A stretch of DNA of 51,529 nt from Candidatus Uhrbacteria bacterium (GTDB lineage: Bacteria > Patescibacteriota > Patescibacteriia > UBA9934 > GWF2-40-263): the NCBI GenBank assembly GCA_016209325.1, contig JACQWJ010000036.1, positions 1 to 51,529 on the forward strand. Direction: 5' to 3'. Below, one piece after another: positions 29,907 to 40,256 of the stretch (position 1 is the first letter of the stretch; each line of letters begins with the position of its first letter). The notes beneath the pieces are model-generated. The model had not been told where the DNA came from. It saw only the letters and a list, made by a program, of their open reading frames with translations, and searched no databases. Both the position numbers and the translations under genes were made by a program.

Positions 29907-31007
29907 TCAGGCAGCTTGACTCTCTGCTGCCTGATGGAACGGACGCGCGGGAGCCGTGAATCCGTCGATACGGATCTTACCCGCGGATTCCGGAACGGCA
30001 GCCTCGATGGCTGCGCGGCAGCGTTCCAGCTCCGCACGGAGTACATCGGCAGAAAAGGTTGAATCGACTCCGCTCTCCCCAGGTTTGGCAACGTAAATGA
30101 GCGCGAATGGATTCTCTTTCGTGAATGCCAGGCCGCTCTTTTTTACCTGATCGTCCGAAAGGGCACCCTCCGCTTCATACTGTTCGCTAAAGGCGATCTT
30201 CACGGCGAGTACCAAGGCATCCATGGCCTGCTCTGCGGTCAAGATGCGGCGTGTGATGCTGAATCCCGCCGGCATCCATTCCTGCCAAGCCGCGTTTCCG
30301 GTATCGAGCCGGCCGGTAGCGTCGTAGTAGGCGGCGCGGCCTGGATGGTCCCCGGAAATTTTCGCGTGCCCTCCATACTCGATGCCTAACTCGGCGGCAA
30401 GCGTTGTGCCGTAGGCTCGAGCGATCTCATCATCGGTTTTCCCAGTGGAAAGCTCGGGATGCGCGGCCGCAAACGCCTGGACCGCTCCACAGCCCGTATG
30501 GGTATAGACCTGCTTGATTCCGACCGCCTTGAGCTCGGCACGGAACGCGGCCTTCTCCTCGTCCTTCAGCAGGATGCCAGATCCGGGAACACGGAACGTG
30601 CCCGCGGCCCGACGCTCGTCCATGCAGCAGAGGCACGGCTTCTCGTCCGTAAACGCGTCTTCGAGCTCTGGGTACCGCTCCACGTAAGAAGCCACGCCTC
30701 CTACGCTTTCCATTTCCTCAAGAATGCGAGCGTCATACGCATGAATGAGATCTTTTGCCCGTTCCGTCTTCGGTCCGAACGGAACGGCCGCCTCAAACTG
30801 ATCCCGGTAGGACCATGGCCAGACTGGTTCTGGAGCGTGCGTCAAACCGTCGTCTGAGTCGGGTGCCCGACCAGGAACCTTTCCACGGACAACTTCGGGG
30901 TCCGGACTTTTATCGCGGGAGGGTTCTCTCTCAAGAAAAAAATCTTCAAATCCGGGAAGTTCAGATCCAAACATATGCGTTATACCATCCACAAATAACC
31001 AATGCAC
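29907..31007 (-). CDS. hypothetical protein with beta-carbonic-anhydrase-like Cys/His/Cys zinc motifs
   Basis: CCMDER (C-x-D-x-R) and, 42 aa later, HTGCGA (H-x-x-C-G). Start uncertain (GTG 31007 or ATG 30974). Confidence 0.35.
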   Translation of the reverse strand: MHWLFVDGITHMFGSELPGFEDFFLEREPSRDKSPDPEVVRGKVPGRAPDSDDGLTHAPEPVWPWSYRDQFEAAVPFGPKTERAKDLIHAYDARILEEMESVGGVASYVERYPELEDAFTDEKPCLCCMDERRAAGTFRVPGSGILLKDEEKAAFRAELKAVGIKQVYTHTGCGAVQAFAAAHPELSTGKTDDEIARAYGTTLAAELGIEYGGHAKISGDHPGRAAYYDATGRLDTGNAAWQEWMPAGFSITRRILTAEQAMDALVLAVKIAFSEQYEAEGALSDDQVKKSGLAFTKENPFALIYVAKPGESGVDSTFSADVLRAELERCRAAIEAAVPESAGKIRIDGFTAPARPFHQAAESQAA

Positions 31008-31141: not shown

Positions 31142-31171
31142 AAAAAGAAAAACCGCCACCCGCAAGTGACG
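31142..31171 (-). terminator. terminator after tRNA-Arg
   Basis: Minus strand CGUCAC-uugcgg-GUGGCG followed by GUUUUUCUUUUU. Confidence 0.5.
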
Positions 31172-31178
31172 ACTTTTC

Positions 31179-31255
31179 TGGTGCGCCCAGCACGACTTGA
31201 ACGTGCGACCCTCAGCTCCGCAAGCTGATGCTCTATCCAACTGAGCTATGGGCGC
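31179..31255 (-). tRNA. tRNA-Arg (anticodon GCG), CCA encoded
   Basis: Reverse complement GCGCCCA-TA-GCTC-AGTTGGATA-GAGC-A-TCAGC-TTGCGGA-GCTGA-GGGTC-GCACG-TTCAAGT-CGTGC-TGGGCGC-ACCA folds as a cloverleaf. Anticodon loop is TT-GCG-GA. Confidence 0.88.
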
Positions 31256-31435: not shown

Positions 31436-31951
31436 TCAGAGTTTATACAGCCTTCGGATCATATCCGTCAAGGTCTCGTCGGTCCGGTTCAGGTTTTCCG
31501 GGCAGTACTGGAGGAGGATGCCGCGGACCTCGTTGGGGTCCGTGTCCTCAAGTGGGATCGAGACCATGGGGTGCCACAGCTTCTGGAAGTCGAGGTACAG
31601 AAGCTTCACATCCGGCGGACTGTAGGCGATCGAGAAGTCCTTCATCTCCTGGTAGTCGTGGAAGGAATTGCCGATGACGACCCCCGTCGTCGTCAGTACG
31701 ACGTCCACTTTCTCCGGGTCCTGGAACGTCGAAAGAAGGGTGATGATCCCGACCATGAGGATGATGACCGCGAACAGGAAGTTGGCCGTGGCGATCGCGT
31801 ACACGATGAGCAGGACACCGACGACCGCCCCCGCTATGTACCAGGTGCGGGACCGTTCGTGACGGGGATACTCGTCCACCTCCCAGGACAGGAGCGGACT
31901 GCCGTACATAGCCGGAGACACGGGGGTGTCGGAATGGATGACGGGGTCCAT
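31436..31951 (-). CDS. membrane protein (2 TM plus C-terminal soluble domain)
   Basis: 171 aa. TM hairpin WYIAGAVVGVLLIVYAIATANFLFAVIILMVGIITLL. Same strand, 85 nt downstream of the CDPS fusion gene. Confidence 0.5.
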   Translation of the reverse strand: MDPVIHSDTPVSPAMYGSPLLSWEVDEYPRHERSRTWYIAGAVVGVLLIVYAIATANFLFAVIILMVGIITLLSTFQDPEKVDVVLTTTGVVIGNSFHDYQEMKDFSIAYSPPDVKLLYLDFQKLWHPMVSIPLEDTDPNEVRGILLQYCPENLNRTDETLTDMIRRLYKL

Positions 31952-32036: not shown

Positions 32037-33476
32037 CTAGCCATCTACAATGAACGTGCCGTCCCTGCCCGTGTACTTTCTGATCAACCTTGCGACGGTT
32101 CCGTCCTGCTTCAGCAATGCCAATTCCTTGTCCAACAGCGCTTTCAGCCTGGATTCGCCACGCTTCAGCATGAATGTGTTCTCGTACACGCGAATCAGGT
32201 CTGCCGAAGTCGCCACGAGTTTGACCAATGAAGCCTTATTGAAGTGTTCCGCGAGATACGGCTCGACGAACGTGAAGTCGGCGCGATTCTCGGCCACGCA
32301 CTTCAGGCCTTCGGCGTTGTCCGACAGCTGCGGAACCCGGACGCGGCGATGACGGGGAAAGTCCGCCTGCGCGATGGAGTCGGAGATGTCGTTTTCCTTC
32401 ACGGCGACGCGTGCGTTCTCATCGGCCGCTATCTGTGTGGTCGTCCTCCCATCATCGGATCGCGTCCAGACGAATACCGGACTTCTGAAAAGGGACGTGG
32501 AAAAATCCGCCTGCGCTTTCCGCTCGGGAGTGGGCCACACGATACTGCCGAACAGATCGAAGCGGTTCTGATTGAGCCCATCCACGATAACGCCGTACCC
32601 TATCTCCTCGGACCACCGGACCTGCCACCGGTATTTTTTGGCGATCTCGATAATGATCTCGTAGCAAATGCCGGAAAAGTTGTCGTAGTCCCGGTCGTAC
32701 ATGAAGGACGGGATGGAGTTCGCGAAGCCAACCCGCAGGATGCCCGTCTTTTCTATCCTGTCCAAGACGTCCGAAAAGGGCCCTTCGTTTTCCTCGCCTT
32801 CAAGTCCCCACATGGGGTTGTAGGTTTCGTAAGGATTCTCGACGAGCAGGAAGTCGAGGTGCGGCTTCGGAACGCCGTCGAACGTTCCCGCGATGTAGTT
32901 CTCGTACACGTGCCAGTTCTTATGGTAGACGTAGATGACTTGGTCGACTCCAAGGTACGTAGGGGCGAATTCCAAAAAGGCGAATTCCGACAGCAGGTAG
33001 TGGACGGCGATCCCCGTGGCCTTCTCGAGGTCCGGAATGTCCTTCTTTGAACCCTCCAACACCGCCCGTGTCGTGGCGTCTGCACTCGCATGGAATTTGT
33101 CGTTGCCGTGATAGAGAACCAAAACGCGTTCGTAAGCCTCACGATAGACGGGACGGTTTTCCACTTCCCGTTCCCAATCGAAAATCCTTACCACGTCTTC
33201 GCCATAGCCAAGGTCCTCCATGGCTTTGCGCACGCGGTTCTTGAGCCCGTTGCCGCGCGGGATGGCCTTGTCGCGCCGCGCGCGGTTTTCGGGATACCCG
33301 AACGCGACGTAAGTGGATATCGCGGGAACGTCGGCAATCAAAACGGCGACCCGCCCAAACCGCTCCACGACGGTTTTCAAGAGGTAATGAACCTCCTCGT
33401 CCTTGAAGTAGCCATTGCCCGGGCTCATCCCGATGATGGGATAGGTTGTCGGATCGATGGATATCATAGGACTCAT
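32037..33476 (-). CDS. tRNA-dependent cyclodipeptide synthase (CDPS, NYH-type) fused to a family-3 solute-binding (SBP_bac_3/PBP2) domain
   Basis: N-terminal about 230 aa: IIGMSPGNGYF (compare AlbC GISAGNSYF with catalytic Ser and Asn40), HYLLSEFAF (Y178/E182 equivalent), VYH (Y202-H203). C-terminal about 240 aa: ILRVGFANSIPSFMYD...GICYEIIIEIAKK...NRFDLFGS...TPERKAQADFSTSLF...LKQDGTVARLIRKY, typical of amino-acid-binding SBPs. Confidence 0.75.
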   Translation of the reverse strand: MSPMISIDPTTYPIIGMSPGNGYFKDEEVHYLLKTVVERFGRVAVLIADVPAISTYVAFGYPENRARRDKAIPRGNGLKNRVRKAMEDLGYGEDVVRIFDWEREVENRPVYREAYERVLVLYHGNDKFHASADATTRAVLEGSKKDIPDLEKATGIAVHYLLSEFAFLEFAPTYLGVDQVIYVYHKNWHVYENYIAGTFDGVPKPHLDFLLVENPYETYNPMWGLEGEENEGPFSDVLDRIEKTGILRVGFANSIPSFMYDRDYDNFSGICYEIIIEIAKKYRWQVRWSEEIGYGVIVDGLNQNRFDLFGSIVWPTPERKAQADFSTSLFRSPVFVWTRSDDGRTTTQIAADENARVAVKENDISDSIAQADFPRHRRVRVPQLSDNAEGLKCVAENRADFTFVEPYLAEHFNKASLVKLVATSADLIRVYENTFMLKRGESRLKALLDKELALLKQDGTVARLIRKYTGRDGTFIVDG

Positions 33477-33796
33477 CCTGTTTGGTCCCGCATGCGCTCG
33501 AGAGCACGCAACACCGTAGCGGCGACGAAATCTTTGCGTGCTTCCGCCAACACAGGCAATGTCGCCAAAACAGAGGCATTCTTTGTGGGAAGCAGTTCCA
33601 CCTTTCCGCTAGCATAGTCCGTCAGGTGGGTGAGAAATTCATCAAGCCACGATGGCGTAACGGTGAGCACACCATCGAAGTCGATGTGTATCGGCTCGTC
33701 AGAACGAAGCTGTGGACGCATGGCATTGAACGCCTCCTGTCCTGCTGGGCGGGAAATAAGCACGTTTCCAAATTTTTTCAGTTGAATGGTTTGCAT
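33473..33796 (-). CDS. STAS-like protein (DUF4325-type)
   Basis: 107 aa. GNVLISRPAGQEAF...IHIDFDGVLTVTPSWLDEFL matches my recollection of the DUF4325/STAS pattern. Its stop overlaps the CDPS start (ATGA). Confidence 0.6.
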   Translation of the reverse strand: MQTIQLKKFGNVLISRPAGQEAFNAMRPQLRSDEPIHIDFDGVLTVTPSWLDEFLTHLTDYASGKVELLPTKNASVLATLPVLAEARKDFVAATVLRALERMRDQTG

Positions 33797-33807
33797 ATCT
33801 CTAAATC

Positions 33808-34533
33808 TTAAAAGAGGATAACGGCATACGTTCCACGGATATTTTCGTCGGTCATCTTGATACGCATCGATCCGGGGCCTACGGGAATGTGAACGGCACC
33901 GATCCCCGAACGAAACAAGAGACCGATCTCCTTTGATTCCGCGACGGCACGGACGACTTTGAGTCCGTTCCCGCGCTTTTCTGGATTTCTTCCCGAAACG
34001 ATTTCCGTAAACGCCACATGAAGAGCGTCGATGTCCGTAGCCAGGTTCGGCCGAACGTGTTGCAGTGTCGCTTTGACGCCGCGTCCGCGGTCTGCCAGAA
34101 CGATGACCCGTTTAGCCACGTCGTATCCATAAAATACGCCCTGAACGTCAGGCCAATTGCCAACGTTGTGCGCGAAAGAATTGTCGCCGATTTCCCCGGC
34201 GACGAGCGTGAGAAGCGATGCCAATTCTTCGGAGATAGAGCTCTCCCGCTGAAGTTCGGCACCCATCTTGGCCACGCGGCTCGTGAAACGATCTGGTCGC
34301 TCGCAATAATATGTGTCGGAGAGTTCCGGCGCCCATGCGCTTGTTGCCCACGCACGTCCCAATAGCTGGAGATCGATGGCAAAACGCTTCAGGTTTTCTA
34401 ATCCGTAGTAGCGCTGCTTGCCCACGCTTCGTTCAGCACGAAGCTTACCGGATTTTTCCCAGTTGCGCAGAGTTTGCACGGATACGCCCAGCATCTGTGC
34501 AGCCACACCTATGCGTACGTTTTTCTCAACCAT
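33808..34533 (-). CDS. MerR/excisionase-type HTH fused to a GHKL (SpoIIAB/RsbW-like) ATPase/kinase domain
   Basis: HTH VRIGVAAQMLGVSVQTLRNWEKSGKL. N-box GEIGDNSFAHN, G1 box DRGRGV, G2 box KRGNGLKV. Confidence 0.7.
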   Translation of the reverse strand: MVEKNVRIGVAAQMLGVSVQTLRNWEKSGKLRAERSVGKQRYYGLENLKRFAIDLQLLGRAWATSAWAPELSDTYYCERPDRFTSRVAKMGAELQRESSISEELASLLTLVAGEIGDNSFAHNVGNWPDVQGVFYGYDVAKRVIVLADRGRGVKATLQHVRPNLATDIDALHVAFTEIVSGRNPEKRGNGLKVVRAVAESKEIGLLFRSGIGAVHIPVGPGSMRIKMTDENIRGTYAVILF

Positions 34534-35432: not shown

Positions 35433-35945
35433 ATGCGTCTGCCCACGCGCAAATCGGAAATTCTGCGTCAGGTCAAGGAAGGAGATGAGGATCGCTACCT
35501 CACTCCCGCCTCGATTGAGTGCATAAAGCGCGAGATCGACGACCTCGTCGGCCGCCAGCGTCCGGAAGCCGCGGCCGAAGTCCGACGGACGGGCGAGATG
35601 GGCGACTTCTCCGAGAACGCCGCCTACCAGATGGCCAAGGGCCGCCTGCGCCAGATTAACGGTCGCGTCGCCAAGCTCGAGGAGCGCATCCGCTACGCCA
35701 TTCCGATCGACACCTCATCCGGTGGGTCCGGCCGCGTCCGCATCGGCTCGACCGTTGTGCTGGAATGCGGCGGAAAACAGGTCACGTACGAGATCCTCGG
35801 CTCGCAGGAGACGAATCCCCTGAAGGGCCGCATCTCGTACCTGTCCCCCCTCGGCGTGGCGCTCATGGGGCATGCGGCTGGAGACATCTTGACACTCGAA
35901 GTCGGTGGGAACCACGTTCCCTACGTCATCGTCGATGTGCGGTAA
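35433..35945 (+). CDS. greA: transcription elongation factor GreA
   Basis: GDFSENAAYQMAKGRL coiled-coil tip motif and C-terminal FKBP-like ISYLSPLGVALMGHAAGD. Confidence 0.88.
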   Translation: MRLPTRKSEILRQVKEGDEDRYLTPASIECIKREIDDLVGRQRPEAAAEVRRTGEMGDFSENAAYQMAKGRLRQINGRVAKLEERIRYAIPIDTSSGGSGRVRIGSTVVLECGGKQVTYEILGSQETNPLKGRISYLSPLGVALMGHAAGDILTLEVGGNHVPYVIVDVR

Positions 35946-35968
35946 CTCGTACGCCTTATTTTTTTCGT

Positions 35969-37231
35969 ATGTCTGAACGTCCGTTTCACGAGACGATGCT
36001 GGAAATACTGAATGTCGAAAAAAGCGAACGGCGACTTCAGGATCTTTTTCTTAAGAGCGAGTCGATTACCGAAGTCCAGCTGGAGGTCTTTGTCGACGGA
36101 TTGGAAAAAGAAATGCGCGAGCAAATTTCCTCTATCGCCTCGGAGGACGAGCGCATTTCCGTTGTTCTGACCCTTTTGCAACGGAAGACCGTGGTTGACC
36201 CACGAGCCGTCATTCGTTCCATCAAGGAGCGCGGCGGCTTTGCCAAGGTCGCGCAGGAAGAAGACGATGGCGAGGTGGAACTAGACATCAGGACGAGGAA
36301 CCAGAACGGAGGCGTGCAGCGAGAGTATCTGTGGACCGACGATGCTGATGTCGAGGTGGCAGTTCAGCAGCTTCAACGAGGTATCCTAACCAAGCTACGC
36401 CACCGGTTCCGCCAGGAAGTCTGGGAGGACCGAATGGCTCTCCATGCCCTTTCCCACATCATTAAGGTCGGGGAGGTCTTCAAGCTCCTCGGGGGAGATG
36501 TCATGAAGATCACCCCCGAATGGATGGCACCCTACGTGCAAGCCAATCACCGCGCTTTGAAGAGACTGTACACGCTTCCAGAACGCAGTCCCTACGTTTC
36601 CTATGCCCTTCTCGAACGTGAGGTGGGCGAGGTTGATGGGGTTATTGAAGCATTCGAGATTCAACGGAACTTGAATTTCGACACCTTAGACGCCTTGCTT
36701 TACGACCAGGCGGGGCCCCCTTCTCTTGTCAAAACGGTTGGGTACGTTTTTGACTACGTCCGAGGCCTCGTGTTTCTGTTTGAGCGCGGGTTTGCGTTGA
36801 CCGACAATACGTTGGACAACATCGGGGTAAGCCGCGAAAATGGAACGGGTTTTGTGTTCGATTTCGGTGCGCTGTTTCAAGCCGCCGACGCCGTTCCCGC
36901 CTTCATCACCAAAAAAGACTATGGCGCACCTGAAGTGAGACAGAATAGGCTGCATCCAGCTTCAGAGGCAGGCGTCGCTTATGAGATAGGTGCATGCCTG
37001 CATTTTATTCACGCCGCCTACAGCGATCTTTCCCTACCATTTTCTGAGCGCATGGTTCTGCGCCTCGTTTCCGTGTTGGCGCACGACCTTACCGAAGAGA
37101 AGCCACAATTCCGTCTTCCTCTTTTCAAAGTATTGCAAAACCTGGAATATATCTGCCAAGAGATCAAGCGTGTCGGATTGGATGCGGATATGGCGCAATC
37201 GACGTCCACGGCGGGTAAAAAGGTTGCATAA
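35969..37231 (+). CDS. hypothetical protein with degenerate protein-kinase-like C-terminal domain
   Basis: LTDNTLDNIGV (D...N catalytic-loop-like, no HRD His), FDFGAL (DFG) and YGAPEV (APE). Start trimmed to ATG 35969 after the greA stop. Confidence 0.45.
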   Translation: MSERPFHETMLEILNVEKSERRLQDLFLKSESITEVQLEVFVDGLEKEMREQISSIASEDERISVVLTLLQRKTVVDPRAVIRSIKERGGFAKVAQEEDDGEVELDIRTRNQNGGVQREYLWTDDADVEVAVQQLQRGILTKLRHRFRQEVWEDRMALHALSHIIKVGEVFKLLGGDVMKITPEWMAPYVQANHRALKRLYTLPERSPYVSYALLEREVGEVDGVIEAFEIQRNLNFDTLDALLYDQAGPPSLVKTVGYVFDYVRGLVFLFERGFALTDNTLDNIGVSRENGTGFVFDFGALFQAADAVPAFITKKDYGAPEVRQNRLHPASEAGVAYEIGACLHFIHAAYSDLSLPFSERMVLRLVSVLAHDLTEEKPQFRLPLFKVLQNLEYICQEIKRVGLDADMAQSTSTAGKKVA

Positions 37232-39557: not shown

Positions 39558-40256
39558 CTACTTCTTTTTTCCCGCCGCCTTTTTCTTGACTTCCTTCTTC
39601 GGGGCCGCGGTCTTGGCTTTCAGTGCCTTCTCTTCGGGAGCGACCGGCTTCTTTTCTTCCTTCTTCAGTTCCTTGACGATGGGTTTCTCCTCCTTCACGG
39701 GCGCCTTCTCTTCTTTTTTGTAAGGCGCTGCCGTGGATCCGGCCGGAGCCAGCGCCTTCAGGAGCGCGTCAAACTTGGCGTTTAGTGCCTTCAGTTGTTC
39801 GGCAACTTGTGAGTCGACCCGTGAGTCGACGCCTCCCCGGTTCTGAGTGGGGCCTCCGCTTGCGCCAAAGCACTGGCGGCAATAGACTGGCTTCTCGCCC
39901 GTGGGCTTGAAGGGTACCTCGCACTGGGTGCCGCACTTGGCGCAGGTCACGTTGTACATCCGCTTGTCGTCAAACGAGAACTTTTCCGGGCGAGAATCCC
40001 GGAATCCTCCCGATCCGCCTCCGCCCTCCTCGTCCTTGCGGAAGCAGTTGGGGCAGAACACCGGCCGTCCGGGAGCCGGTTTGAACGGAACCTCGCAGGA
40101 GTTCCCACATTCGCTGCAGGTCGCCTGATGCATGGGCGGGCGTTCCCCGTCCCGTCCGCCGGGTCCGCGTCCCCACGAGCCACCTCCCCCTCCGCCTCCG
40201 AACTTCCGGCCGCCCCCGAATCCTCCGGAGCCGCCGCCACGATTTCCGTACGCCAT
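39558..40256 (-). CDS. tandem CxxC-x17-CxxC zinc-ribbon protein with Gly-rich N-terminal and Lys-rich C-terminal tails
   Basis: CSEC-17-CPNC and CAKC-17-CRQC, both with CEVPFKP inside. GGGSGGFGGG N-terminus and KKEEK/KKKAAGKKK C-terminus. Confidence 0.75.
   Translation of the reverse strand: MAYGNRGGGSGGFGGGRKFGGGGGGGSWGRGPGGRDGERPPMHQATCSECGNSCEVPFKPAPGRPVFCPNCFRKDEEGGGGSGGFRDSRPEKFSFDDKRMYNVTCAKCGTQCEVPFKPTGEKPVYCRQCFGASGGPTQNRGGVDSRVDSQVAEQLKALNAKFDALLKALAPAGSTAAPYKKEEKAPVKEEKPIVKELKKEEKKPVAPEEKALKAKTAAPKKEVKKKAAGKKK

What the first reader, a model, noticed from the sequence alone, without database searches (positions are those of the whole stretch)
32037..33476. CDPS catalytic core fused to a periplasmic-type amino-acid-binding domain with no signal peptide
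The N-terminal about 230 aa carry the residues that define AlbC-like CDPSs: GMSPGNGYF (catalytic Ser, Asn40), YLLSE (Tyr178/Glu182 equivalents) and VYH (Tyr202-His203). This places it in the NYH subgroup. The C-terminal about 240 aa have the SBP_bac_3 layout. SBPs are normally exported, but here the domain follows a cytoplasmic enzyme, so it probably acts as an intracellular sensor or allosteric domain. CDPS fusions of this type are not something I recall being described.
Basis: partly seen in the sequence, partly recalled or inferred. Interest (0 to 1): 0.8.

Follow-up and report, generated by a model that had tools for sequence, protein, structure and literature searches.

The report
Cyclodipeptide synthase fused to amino-acid-binding domain
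A gene in a tiny-celled groundwater-type (CPR) bacterium joins an enzyme that makes cyclic dipeptides from charged tRNAs to a nutrient-binding domain normally found outside the cell; the fusion is real, widespread and strongly conserved in these bacteria, has only been listed in a spreadsheet and never studied, and probably lets an amino-acid-like molecule control the enzyme.

Summary
ORF 32037-33476 (-) encodes a 479-aa protein (probable start Met4, 476 aa). It has an N-terminal NYH-type cyclodipeptide synthase (CDPS) and a C-terminal SBP_bac_3 domain. There is no signal peptide and no TM segment.

All six AlbC catalytic/subfamily residues align and are invariant or nearly so in 120 homologues. 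It is not an assembly chimera: at least 120 protein clusters (51-74% identity) from CPR/Patescibacteria, including a closed 808-kb genome, have the same architecture. The host here is Uhrbacteria-like.

The fused SBP domains form one clade nested among signal-peptide-bearing SBPs and keep the same cleft signature, including the carboxylate-binding Arg (R319) and an acidic residue at the amine-binding position (E405). The cyclohexadienyl-dehydratase general acid is absent. No neighbouring gene is conserved across 10 loci.

Best reading: a self-contained cytoplasmic CDPS whose captured binding domain senses an amino-acid-like ligand and gates synthesis. This is inferred, not shown.

The novelty claim is overstated. 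Gondry et al. [quoted passage not shown] Product, ligand and coupling remain unknown.

The parts
32037..33476 (-). Whole ORF of the CDPS-SBP fusion protein (479 aa from the first ATG; probable true start Met4 at 33467, 476 aa; stop codon 32037-32039)
32832..33443 (-). CDPS domain, aa 12-215 (NYH subfamily). Catalytic S18, N21, Y160, E164, Y184, H185. Pockets P1 IGLAWFLY and P2 TAVGKWH. Basic alpha-4 helix R65-K84
33423..33425 (-). Codon of the catalytic serine S18 (AlbC Ser37)
   Evidence: Ser in 116/116 ungapped family members
32769..32831 (-). Family-specific inter-domain connector, aa 216-236: conserved (EN)PYETYNP-WGLE motif followed by a short acidic loop, the only low-confidence internal segment of the model. 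It lies outside both Pfam domain matches
32052..32768 (-). SBP_bac_3 (type II periplasmic-binding-protein fold) domain, aa 237-475. Invariant cleft residues E290, G293-Y294-G295, W314-P315, R319, D363, Q383, E405, N433
32520..32522 (-). Codon of R319, equivalent to the alpha-carboxylate-binding Arg85 of AncCDT-1 and related amino-acid SBPs
   Evidence: Arg in 120/120
33473..33796 (-). Upstream 107-aa DUF4325 (STAS-like) gene. Its stop lies 5 nt before the probable start of the fusion gene. Probably co-transcribed in this genome, but not conserved next to the fusion gene elsewhere
33808..34533 (-). Upstream 241-aa gene with a MerR HTH and a weak HATPase_c_2-like region. Local context only; not conserved in other loci

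Best explanation
The gene encodes a soluble cytoplasmic two-domain protein. The N-terminal half is a catalytically competent NYH-type cyclodipeptide synthase. It takes two aminoacyl-tRNAs, forms an acyl-enzyme on Ser18 and releases one specific cyclodipeptide; the same product is expected across the family because the specificity pockets are nearly invariant. The C-terminal half is a Venus-flytrap binding domain captured once from an exported amino-acid-type solute-binding protein, with loss of its signal peptide. It still binds a small zwitterionic or cationic amino-acid-like ligand in its cleft. Through the conserved rigid connector, cleft opening and closing is coupled to CDPS activity, so cyclodipeptide output reports or depends on the intracellular level of that ligand. 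Shown here: the architecture, the catalytic and cleft residue conservation, the cytoplasmic location, the single origin and the absence of partner genes. Inferred: ligand binding, allosteric coupling, and the identity of product and ligand.
For: CDPS competence: domain scores are well above the curated cut-offs. S37/N40/Y178/E182/Y202/H203 equivalents align and are conserved in 116-120 of 120 homologues. The basic alpha-4 helix residues are conserved, and P1 is [IV]G[LMF]AWFLY with a P2 core of T-x-V-G-K-W-x throughout; my mapping reproduces the published pocket strings for OGY85379.1 exactly. Binding-type cleft: R319 (120/120) sits at the carboxylate-binding Arg85 position, E405 (117/120) at the amine-binding Asp170 position, and S/T365 at Ser133; W314 and D363 are invariant. 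The same signature occurs in the nearest stand-alone relatives (31-39% identity). These carry signal or anchor peptides, and at least one sits in an SBP-permease-ATPase operon. The SBP half of the model superposes on closed, liganded amino-acid SBPs with TM 0.82-0.88. One obligatory unit: all 120 listed homologues have both domains. The fused SBP domains form a single clade. Divergence of the two domains is correlated (r=0.65), and the connector has 7 invariant residues. The AF2 model has pLDDT 92.5 and pTM 0.87 over both domains. Self-contained: no neighbouring gene recurs across 10 loci. Cytoplasmic: no signal peptide or TM segment, and the aa-tRNA substrates are cytoplasmic (established CDPS biochemistry).
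Against: There is no direct evidence of ligand binding or allostery. The canonical 'GTTS' carboxylate/amine-binding loop is replaced by E-N-D-I-S, and Thr80 by Trp, so the ligand may not be a standard alpha-amino acid. No CDPS has been reported to be allosterically regulated (my knowledge; nothing found). In the known C-terminal CDPS fusions the partner is a tailoring enzyme (P450, methyltransferase), not a sensor.
Confidence: 0.45

Rival explanations
1. Product capture: the SBP-derived domain binds the cyclodipeptide made by the CDPS half (or a charged-side-chain cyclodipeptide). This would give feedback inhibition, prevent re-binding, or hand the product to an exporter.
For: The two domains are obligatorily fused with a rigid conserved connector. 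Exporter genes (MFS, EamA) lie directly downstream in some loci. The aromatic cleft residues Y294 and W314 could stack on a diketopiperazine ring. No separate tailoring or carrier genes are conserved.
Against: The invariant Arg319/Glu405 pair occupies the positions that bind the free carboxylate and ammonium of an amino acid, and a diketopiperazine ring has neither group. The same cleft signature is found in exported transporter SBPs of organisms without this CDPS, which argues for a nutrient-type ligand. Exporter adjacency is not conserved.
Confidence: 0.2
2. Catalytic tailoring domain: the SBP fold has become an enzyme (as cyclohexadienyl dehydratase did) that modifies the cyclodipeptide or makes a precursor. 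The protein would then be a two-step biosynthetic fusion, like the CDPS-P450 or chorismate mutase-CDT fusions.
For: The best solved sequence and profile matches are in the AncCDT/CDT lineage. Enzyme-SBP-fold fusions exist (chorismate mutase/CDT, 8cq3/8cq4). Other C-terminal CDPS fusions are tailoring enzymes. There are several invariant polar cleft residues (E290, K360, E361, D363, E405) and no other tailoring gene nearby.
Against: The defining CDT general acid Glu173 is Leu/Ile/Thr here (L408: L91, I19, T8 of 120). The supporting residues Lys100, Asn128 and Asn133 are Val/Ala, Lys and Ser. The polar cleft signature is shared with exported SBPs encoded in a transporter operon, so it is a binding signature, not a catalytic one. 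AncCDT-1, the top match, is a non-catalytic binding protein.
Confidence: 0.15
3. Structural or tRNA-handling module: the domain binds no small ligand and instead serves as a scaffold, for example stabilising the CDPS, mediating oligomerisation, or contacting one of the two tRNA substrates.
For: The high pTM suggests tight packing of the two halves. The CDPS lacks about 19 N-terminal residues present in AlbC and YvmC. The SBP half is near-neutral (pI 6.9) with 35 K+R, whereas the CDPS half is acidic.
Against: The residues that are invariant in the SBP half are concentrated at canonical ligand-cleft positions (R319, W314, D363, E405, N433). A pure scaffold would not need to preserve them, and they are the same ones conserved in the transporter SBPs.
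Confidence: 0.1
4. Artefact: an assembly chimera or a frameshift-fused pair of genes.
For: None found.
Against: The same full-length architecture occurs in at least 120 clusters from many samples and assemblers, including a closed 808-kb Nomurabacteria genome (CP064958.1) and contigs up to 627 kb. The connector is conserved. GC content shows no break across the gene.
Confidence: 0.01

Closest known systems
NYH-subfamily cyclodipeptide synthases (AlbC, YvmC, BtCDPS, Rv2275)
   Same: The N-terminal half has the same family HMMs, the same catalytic Ser/Tyr/Glu/Tyr and the Asn/His NYH signature, and a basic alpha-4 helix. The best solved match is YvmC 3oqh at E=4e-16.
   Different: It carries an about 260-aa C-terminal SBP domain plus connector and lacks about 19 N-terminal residues. 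The pocket strings (IGLAWFLY / TAVGKWH) belong to no characterised specificity group. It is not a cYY synthase, despite that label on some members: NF052540 scores 58 bits against a cut-off of 300.
[quoted passage not shown] 2018 (PMC5816076)
   Same: Same family and architecture. OGY85379.1 = P0009 is 67% identical over 99% of the length, with pockets VGLAWFLY / TAVGKWT.
   Different: The window protein is a new, Uhrbacteria-like member; its closest cluster is 74% identical. The paper gives no activity, ligand, structure or interpretation for the extra domain.
Other C-terminal CDPS fusions (CDPS-P450 'CDPS 71', CDPS-methyltransferase; Gondry et al. 2018)
   Same: An NYH CDPS at the N-terminus with a second domain fused at the C-terminus. 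The isolated CDPS part of CDPS 71 is active.
   Different: In those fusions the partner is a known tailoring enzyme class acting on the product. Here the partner is a non-enzymatic binding-protein fold with a conserved ligand cleft.
Exported class-II (SBP_bac_3) amino-acid-binding proteins of ABC importers, nearest solved: AncCDT-1 (cationic amino-acid binder), TTC0807, EhuB
   Same: Same fold (TM 0.82-0.88), a conserved carboxylate-binding Arg, and an acidic residue at the amine-binding position. An uncharacterised exported subfamily shares the whole cleft signature at 31-39% identity.
   Different: No signal peptide or lipobox, no adjacent permease or ATPase, and fusion to a cytoplasmic enzyme. 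The 'GTTS' loop is replaced by 'ENDIS' and Thr80 by Trp.
Enzymes carrying an SBP-fold module: MltF (regulatory SBP_bac_3-like module on a lytic transglycosylase) and chorismate mutase/cyclohexadienyl dehydratase fusions
   Same: An SBP_bac_3-type module is covalently joined to an enzyme. The MltF model gives a sub-threshold hit (NF008112, E=7e-9) and CM/CDT structures appear among the matches. That the MltF module acts as an allosteric regulator is from my own knowledge, not tested here.
   Different: Those proteins are exported or periplasmic. CDT's SBP fold is catalytic through Glu173, which is absent here. None involves aa-tRNA-dependent chemistry.

Membership tests
Cyclodipeptide synthase (Pfam PF16715 / NCBIfam TIGR04539) | Family HMM score above the curated cut-off | tested here: met
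   PF16715 102.7 bits (cut-off 27); TIGR04539 124.7 bits (cut-off 45)
Cyclodipeptide synthase (Pfam PF16715 / NCBIfam TIGR04539) | Catalytic Ser37 (acyl-enzyme nucleophile) and Tyr178, Glu182, Tyr202 (AlbC numbering) | tested here: met
   S18, Y160, E164, Y184 align to AlbC 3oqv. Conserved in 116/116 (ungapped), 119/120, 120/120 and 120/120 homologues
Cyclodipeptide synthase (Pfam PF16715 / NCBIfam TIGR04539) | Basic patch on helix alpha-4 for tRNA binding | tested here: met
   R65, R67, R68, K70, K79, R81, K84 lie in predicted helix 63-89 and are conserved as K/R across the family. That this patch binds tRNA is from the CDPS literature, not tested here
Cyclodipeptide synthase (Pfam PF16715 / NCBIfam TIGR04539) | Formation of a cyclodipeptide from two aminoacyl-tRNAs | not testable with these tools
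   Needs heterologous expression and LC-MS
NYH subfamily of CDPSs | Asn40, Tyr202, His203 (versus X40/Tyr202/Pro203 in the XYP subfamily) | tested here: met
   N21, Y184, H185, invariant. Gondry et al. list the family member OGY85379.1 under 'NYH CDPSs'
Cyclodityrosine synthase equivalog (NCBIfam NF052540), the label some sources give family members | Equivalog HMM score above the cut-off | tested here: not met
   58.4 bits against a cut-off of 300
SBP_bac_3 / class-II amino-acid solute-binding proteins of ABC importers | Family HMM score and two-lobe Venus-flytrap fold | tested here: met
   PF00497 70.7 bits (cut-off 26.4). Foldseek TM 0.82-0.88 to liganded SBPs
SBP_bac_3 / class-II amino-acid solute-binding proteins of ABC importers | N-terminal signal peptide, lipobox or membrane anchor (export) | tested here: not met
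   The domain starts at about aa 237, behind a cytoplasmic enzyme. There is no hydrophobic N-terminus or TM segment. In contrast, 122 of 130 non-fused relatives have one
SBP_bac_3 / class-II amino-acid solute-binding proteins of ABC importers | Encoded with ABC permease and ATPase genes | tested here: not met
   No permease or ATPase next to the fusion gene in the window or 9 other loci. A stand-alone relative does have them
SBP_bac_3 / class-II amino-acid solute-binding proteins of ABC importers | Alpha-amino-acid-binding motif (Arg85, Asp170, Ser/Thr at 80/132/133; AncCDT-1 numbering) | tested here: inconclusive
   R319 and S365 are retained. Asp170 is Glu (E405), Thr80 is Trp (W314) and Thr131 is Asp (D363). 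This is compatible with an amino-acid-like ligand but not the canonical motif
Cyclohexadienyl dehydratase (CDT/PheC) | General acid Glu173 | tested here: not met
   Position 173 maps to L408 (L91, I19, T8, F1 of 120)
Cyclohexadienyl dehydratase (CDT/PheC) | Supporting residues Lys100, Asn128, Asn133 | tested here: not met
   V334, K360, S365

The most novel reading that the evidence does not exclude
A self-contained, cytoplasmic 'sense-and-signal' enzyme of CPR episymbionts. A binding domain taken from a nutrient importer measures the intracellular level of an acquired amino-acid-like solute and directly gates tRNA-dependent synthesis of one diffusible cyclodipeptide. Nutrient status would thus be converted into a small-molecule signal or effector without any dedicated regulator, tailoring enzyme or exporter. 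This would be the first allosterically ligand-gated CDPS and a rare conserved secondary-metabolite function in ultra-small genomes. It appears more conserved than a core aaRS subunit: 51-74% identity among the top 120 clusters, against 44-62% for PheT.
Probability: 0.2. Interest if true: 0.8.

Novelty: new variant of a known kind. Interest (0 to 1): 0.55.

Why it matters
CDPSs are treated as stand-alone, unregulated enzymes whose context comes from neighbouring tailoring genes. Here the only conserved partner is a covalently attached ligand-binding domain, and the protein is kept, with unusually high conservation, in CPR/Patescibacteria genomes that have shed most biosynthesis. If the domain gates activity, it would link amino-acid or aa-tRNA supply to production of a diffusible cyclodipeptide in obligate episymbionts. 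It would also be a documented case of an exported transporter SBP being re-used as an intracellular sensor on an enzyme, and a natural ligand-switchable CDPS for biocatalysis. The questions are directly testable with two constructs (full length and CDPS only) and a ligand screen.

Tried and rejected
- **Assembly chimera or gene-fusion artefact:** rejected, because the architecture recurs in at least 120 clusters and in a closed genome.
- **Membrane topology with the SBP outside the cell:** rejected, no TM segment or signal peptide.
- **CDT-like dehydratase:** rejected as a member; Glu173 and its supporting residues are absent.
- **Conserved biosynthetic gene cluster:** BLAST of all window neighbours (24-42 kb) against 9 other loci found nothing shared but the fusion gene. 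Pfam contexts differ at every locus.
- **Upstream genes:** the DUF4325 and MerR/HATPase genes are not homologous to the Kerfeldbacteria upstream gene.
- **Dedicated tRNA gene partner:** tRNA genes are often nearby, but their identities vary (Arg, Met, Leu, His, Ser, Val) and several loci have none. Treated as coincidence.
- **Anti-phage defence system:** no PADLOC hit for the fusion; only an HTH-level hit for the MerR gene.
- **Product prediction from P1/P2 pockets:** no characterised group matches. The nearest pocket strings in the accessible sheet are an inactive enzyme (VGMAWFFF) and a cPR synthase (VGLPWFFF). The cLL/cYY/cFX sheets were cut off in the stored file, so the product is left open.
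- **Ligand identification via solved structures:** a profile of the fused plus exported subfamily still hits the reconstructed AncCDT proteins best, and no natural liganded close relative exists. NCBIfam gives only sub-threshold EhuB, LAO and cystine hits.
- **Inter-domain geometry:** model coordinates and PAE are not exposed, so cleft orientation could not be analysed.
- **Promoter/terminator scan:** not above chance for promoters (3 found, 2.5 expected).
- **Literature:** no paper combines CDPS with 'solute-binding' or 'candidate phyla radiation'.
Full report
**1. Observation**

The window contains an uninterrupted 479-codon ORF at 32037..33476 on the minus strand. Pfam assigns aa 14-203 to CDPS (PF16715, E=3e-29, 102.7 bits, cut-off 27) and aa 247-470 to SBP_bac_3 (PF00497, E=1e-19, 70.7 bits, cut-off 26.4). 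NCBIfam TIGR04539 (tRNA-dependent cyclodipeptide synthase) scores 124.7 bits against a cut-off of 45.

Against solved structures, the N-terminal half matches YvmC (3oqh, E=4e-16), BtCDPS, AlbC and Rv2275. The C-terminal half matches amino-acid-binding SBPs and the AncCDT series.

In the HMMER alignment to AlbC the active-site residues map as follows:

| AlbC | This protein |
|---|---|
| S37 | S18 |
| N40 | N21 |
| Y178 | Y160 |
| E182 | E164 |
| Y202 | Y184 |
| H203 | H185 |

The probable start is Met4 (base 33467). An AGGA lies 8 nt upstream of it, and the homologues' N-termini align there.

There is no signal peptide and no transmembrane segment. The most hydrophobic 19-aa window is a core beta-strand of the CDPS. 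The N-terminal hydrophobicity index is 0.41, against at least 2.07 in exported relatives.

**2. Not an artefact, and a family**

A search of about 5.8 billion proteins returned 201 hits. The best 120 clusters all carry both Pfam domains, cover 77-99% of the query (114 of them at least 93%) and are 51-74% identical. The names attached are Kerfeldbacteria, Uhrbacteria, Nomurabacteria, Parcubacteria and Patescibacteria. One lies in a closed 808-kb Nomurabacteria genome.

The window itself is ordinary chromosomal DNA: DnaE, PheT, RseP, GlmM, a Clp ATPase, RecG, GreA and an ABC-F protein. It comes from an Uhrbacteria-like CPR bacterium, since the best named PheT hits are about 61% identical.

Across 120 members:
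- The catalytic residues are conserved in 116-120 sequences.
- The mean top-residue frequency is 0.72 in the CDPS half, 0.65 in the SBP half and 0.65 in the connector.
- The connector has 7 invariant positions in the ENPYETYNP-WGLE element, which belongs to neither Pfam model.
- Divergence of the two halves from the query is correlated (r=0.65).

The fusion protein's top-120 identity range (51-74%) is higher than that of PheT (44-62%). These are not matched genome pairs, so this only suggests strong constraint and/or lateral spread.

**3. CDPS half**

I mapped the published P1/P2 pocket positions onto the family. The mapping reproduces exactly the strings Gondry et al. give for OGY85379.1 (VGLAWFLY / TAVGKWT). 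The window protein is IGLAWFLY / TAVGKWH.

P1 is nearly invariant ([IV]G[LMF]AWFLY) and the P2 core is T-x-V-G-K-W-x, so the family probably makes one product. No characterised specificity group has these strings.

The label 'cyclo(L-tyrosyl-L-tyrosyl) synthase' that some sources apply is unsupported: NF052540 scores 58 bits against a cut-off of 300. The basic alpha-4 helix residues are conserved.

**4. SBP half**

The AF2 model built from a 48-sequence alignment is confident: pLDDT 92.5 and pTM 0.87. The only low-confidence parts are residues 1-3 and the acidic loop at 226-228.

The SBP half superposes on closed, liganded SBPs: AncCDT-1 with TM 0.87, a Trp-binding SBP with 0.82, and cystine, Arg and Gln binders at about 0.85. 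Open forms give only about 0.6. No solved structure combines CDPS and SBP.

Mapping to AncCDT-1 numbering gives:

| AncCDT-1 position | Role | Here | Conservation |
|---|---|---|---|
| Arg85 | binds carboxylate | R319 | 120/120 |
| Asp170 | binds amine | E405 | 117/120 |
| Ser133 | binding motif | S365 | S/T 110/120 |
| Thr80 | binding motif | W314 | 120/120 |
| Thr131 | binding motif | D363 | 120/120 |

The cyclohexadienyl-dehydratase general acid Glu173 (Clifton et al., bioRxiv 10.1101/157495) corresponds to L408 (L/I/T). Lys100, Asn128 and Asn133 are also absent. The domain is therefore not a CDT.

**5. Origin of the SBP half**

An exhaustive HMMER search of 1.84 billion representatives with aa 225-479 found 1356 relatives:
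- The best are fused proteins or fragments of them.
- Next come proteins of 280-300 aa at 31-39% identity.
- These have N-terminal signal, anchor or lipobox sequences and share the cleft signature: E290, G-[YWF]-G, W314-P, R319, [DE]-G-[DE]363, P-Q383, F-x-E405, N433.

One of these (MBL1430690.1, Robiginitomaculum) heads an SBP-permease-ATPase operon. Another is an orphan in a CPR-like ribosomal-protein neighbourhood.

In a neighbour-joining tree the 11 fused domains, plus two N-terminally truncated fragments, form a single clade. Of the 130 other sequences, 122 have signal or anchor peptides.

This indicates one ancestral capture of an exported SBP, with loss of its export signal and retention of its ligand cleft. 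Curated NCBIfam models give only sub-threshold hits (EhuB, LAO, cystine SBP, MltF). A subfamily profile still hits the reconstructed AncCDT proteins best, so the ligand cannot be named.

**6. Context**

In the window the gene follows a 241-aa MerR-HTH/HATPase-like gene and a 107-aa DUF4325 (STAS-like) gene with almost no spacing. It precedes a small membrane protein and tRNA-Arg.

None of these, nor any other window neighbour, recurs beside the fusion gene in 9 other loci. Those loci variously have a methyltransferase, aminotransferase and radical-SAM gene; an Asp/Glu racemase plus MFS transporter; an aaRS; NUDIX; EamA; or plain housekeeping genes. The upstream genes of the window and of the Kerfeldbacteria locus are unrelated.

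There is no PADLOC system and no consistent tRNA partner. The conserved functional unit is the fusion protein alone.

**7. Mechanism**

The shown facts are:
- an intact CDPS;
- an intact binding-type cleft inherited from transporter SBPs;
- a conserved, structured connector;
- a cytoplasmic location;
- no conserved partner genes.

The best-supported inference (0.45) is that the SBP module binds an amino-acid-like solute, and that its open/closed state modulates CDPS activity. Retention of the Arg/acid pair that recognises a free carboxylate and ammonium argues for a free amino-acid-like ligand rather than a neutral diketopiperazine. That is why I rank product capture lower (0.2).

A catalytic tailoring role (0.15) is weakened by the absence of the CDT catalytic residues and by the sharing of the cleft signature with genuine transporter SBPs. 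A pure scaffold or tRNA-handling role (0.1) does not explain the cleft conservation. A chimera is excluded.

**8. Literature and novelty**

Gondry et al. [quoted passage not shown] No paper in the searchable library links CDPS with solute-binding proteins or with CPR. A 2026 review of aa-tRNA-dependent enzymes does not mention fusions.

The architecture is therefore catalogued but functionally unexplored. The window protein is a new member of that catalogued subfamily. The subfamily itself is a variant of the CDPS kind, with an unprecedented non-enzymatic partner domain.

**9. Verdict**

Interest is moderate (0.55). The feature is real, conserved, unexplained and readily testable, but it is already visible in databases and flagged in a 2018 supplement.

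Noticed in passing
window 33473-34533 (-): Two tightly packed genes lie directly upstream of the fusion gene: a 241-aa MerR-HTH protein with a weak HATPase_c_2-like region, and a 107-aa DUF4325 (STAS-like) protein. The pair resembles a partner-switching kinase/antagonist pair. It is found next to the fusion gene only in this window. PADLOC gives only an HTH-level hit (mad1).
   Followed up: partly
L008 8001-8579 (Ca. Kerfeldbacteria JACPGJ010000004.1): A 192-aa ORF that is an in-frame internal-deletion remnant of the CDPS-SBP gene. Residues equivalent to aa 4-91 (72% identity) are joined to aa 361-476 (56% identity), and most of both domains is lost. This looks like a decaying copy.
   Followed up: partly
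window 29907-31007 (-): A 366-aa ORF with no Pfam hit contains 'CMDER' (CxDxR) and 'HTGCG' (HxxCG) motifs reminiscent of beta-carbonic anhydrases. This was seen by eye only and not tested.
   Followed up: no
window 31179-31255 (-) and 31146-31179 (-): tRNA-Arg (anticodon GCG), about 800 bp downstream of the fusion gene, followed immediately by a strong terminator-like hairpin (15-bp stem). tRNA genes of differing identity also lie near the fusion gene in L009, L011 and L012.
   Followed up: partly
window 31436-31951 (-): A 171-aa predicted membrane protein lies 85 bp downstream of the fusion gene, with a hydrophobic stretch WYIAGAVVGVLLIVYAIATANFLFAVIILMVGIITLL and only sub-threshold bPH/DUF3040 hits. 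It is not found in other loci.
   Followed up: partly
family-wide: The CDPS-SBP protein appears better conserved across CPR lineages (51-74% identity in the top 120 clusters) than the housekeeping PheT of the same window (44-62%). Together with the complete lack of synteny, this suggests unusually strong constraint and/or lateral transfer among CPR bacteria.
   Followed up: partly
L013 5001-5867: P0131, the closest stand-alone relative of the fused SBP domain (39% identity, same cleft residues), is a membrane-anchored orphan SBP. It sits inside a ribosomal-protein/NusG/SecE cluster of a CPR-like contig, with no ABC transporter genes beside it.
   Followed up: partly
window 39558-40256 (-) and 35765-37231 (+): A 232-aa protein with two treble-clef zinc-finger repeats (PF23477, E=1e-30), and a 488-aa ORF with no Pfam hit that overlaps the 3' end of greA. 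Neither was examined further.
   Followed up: no
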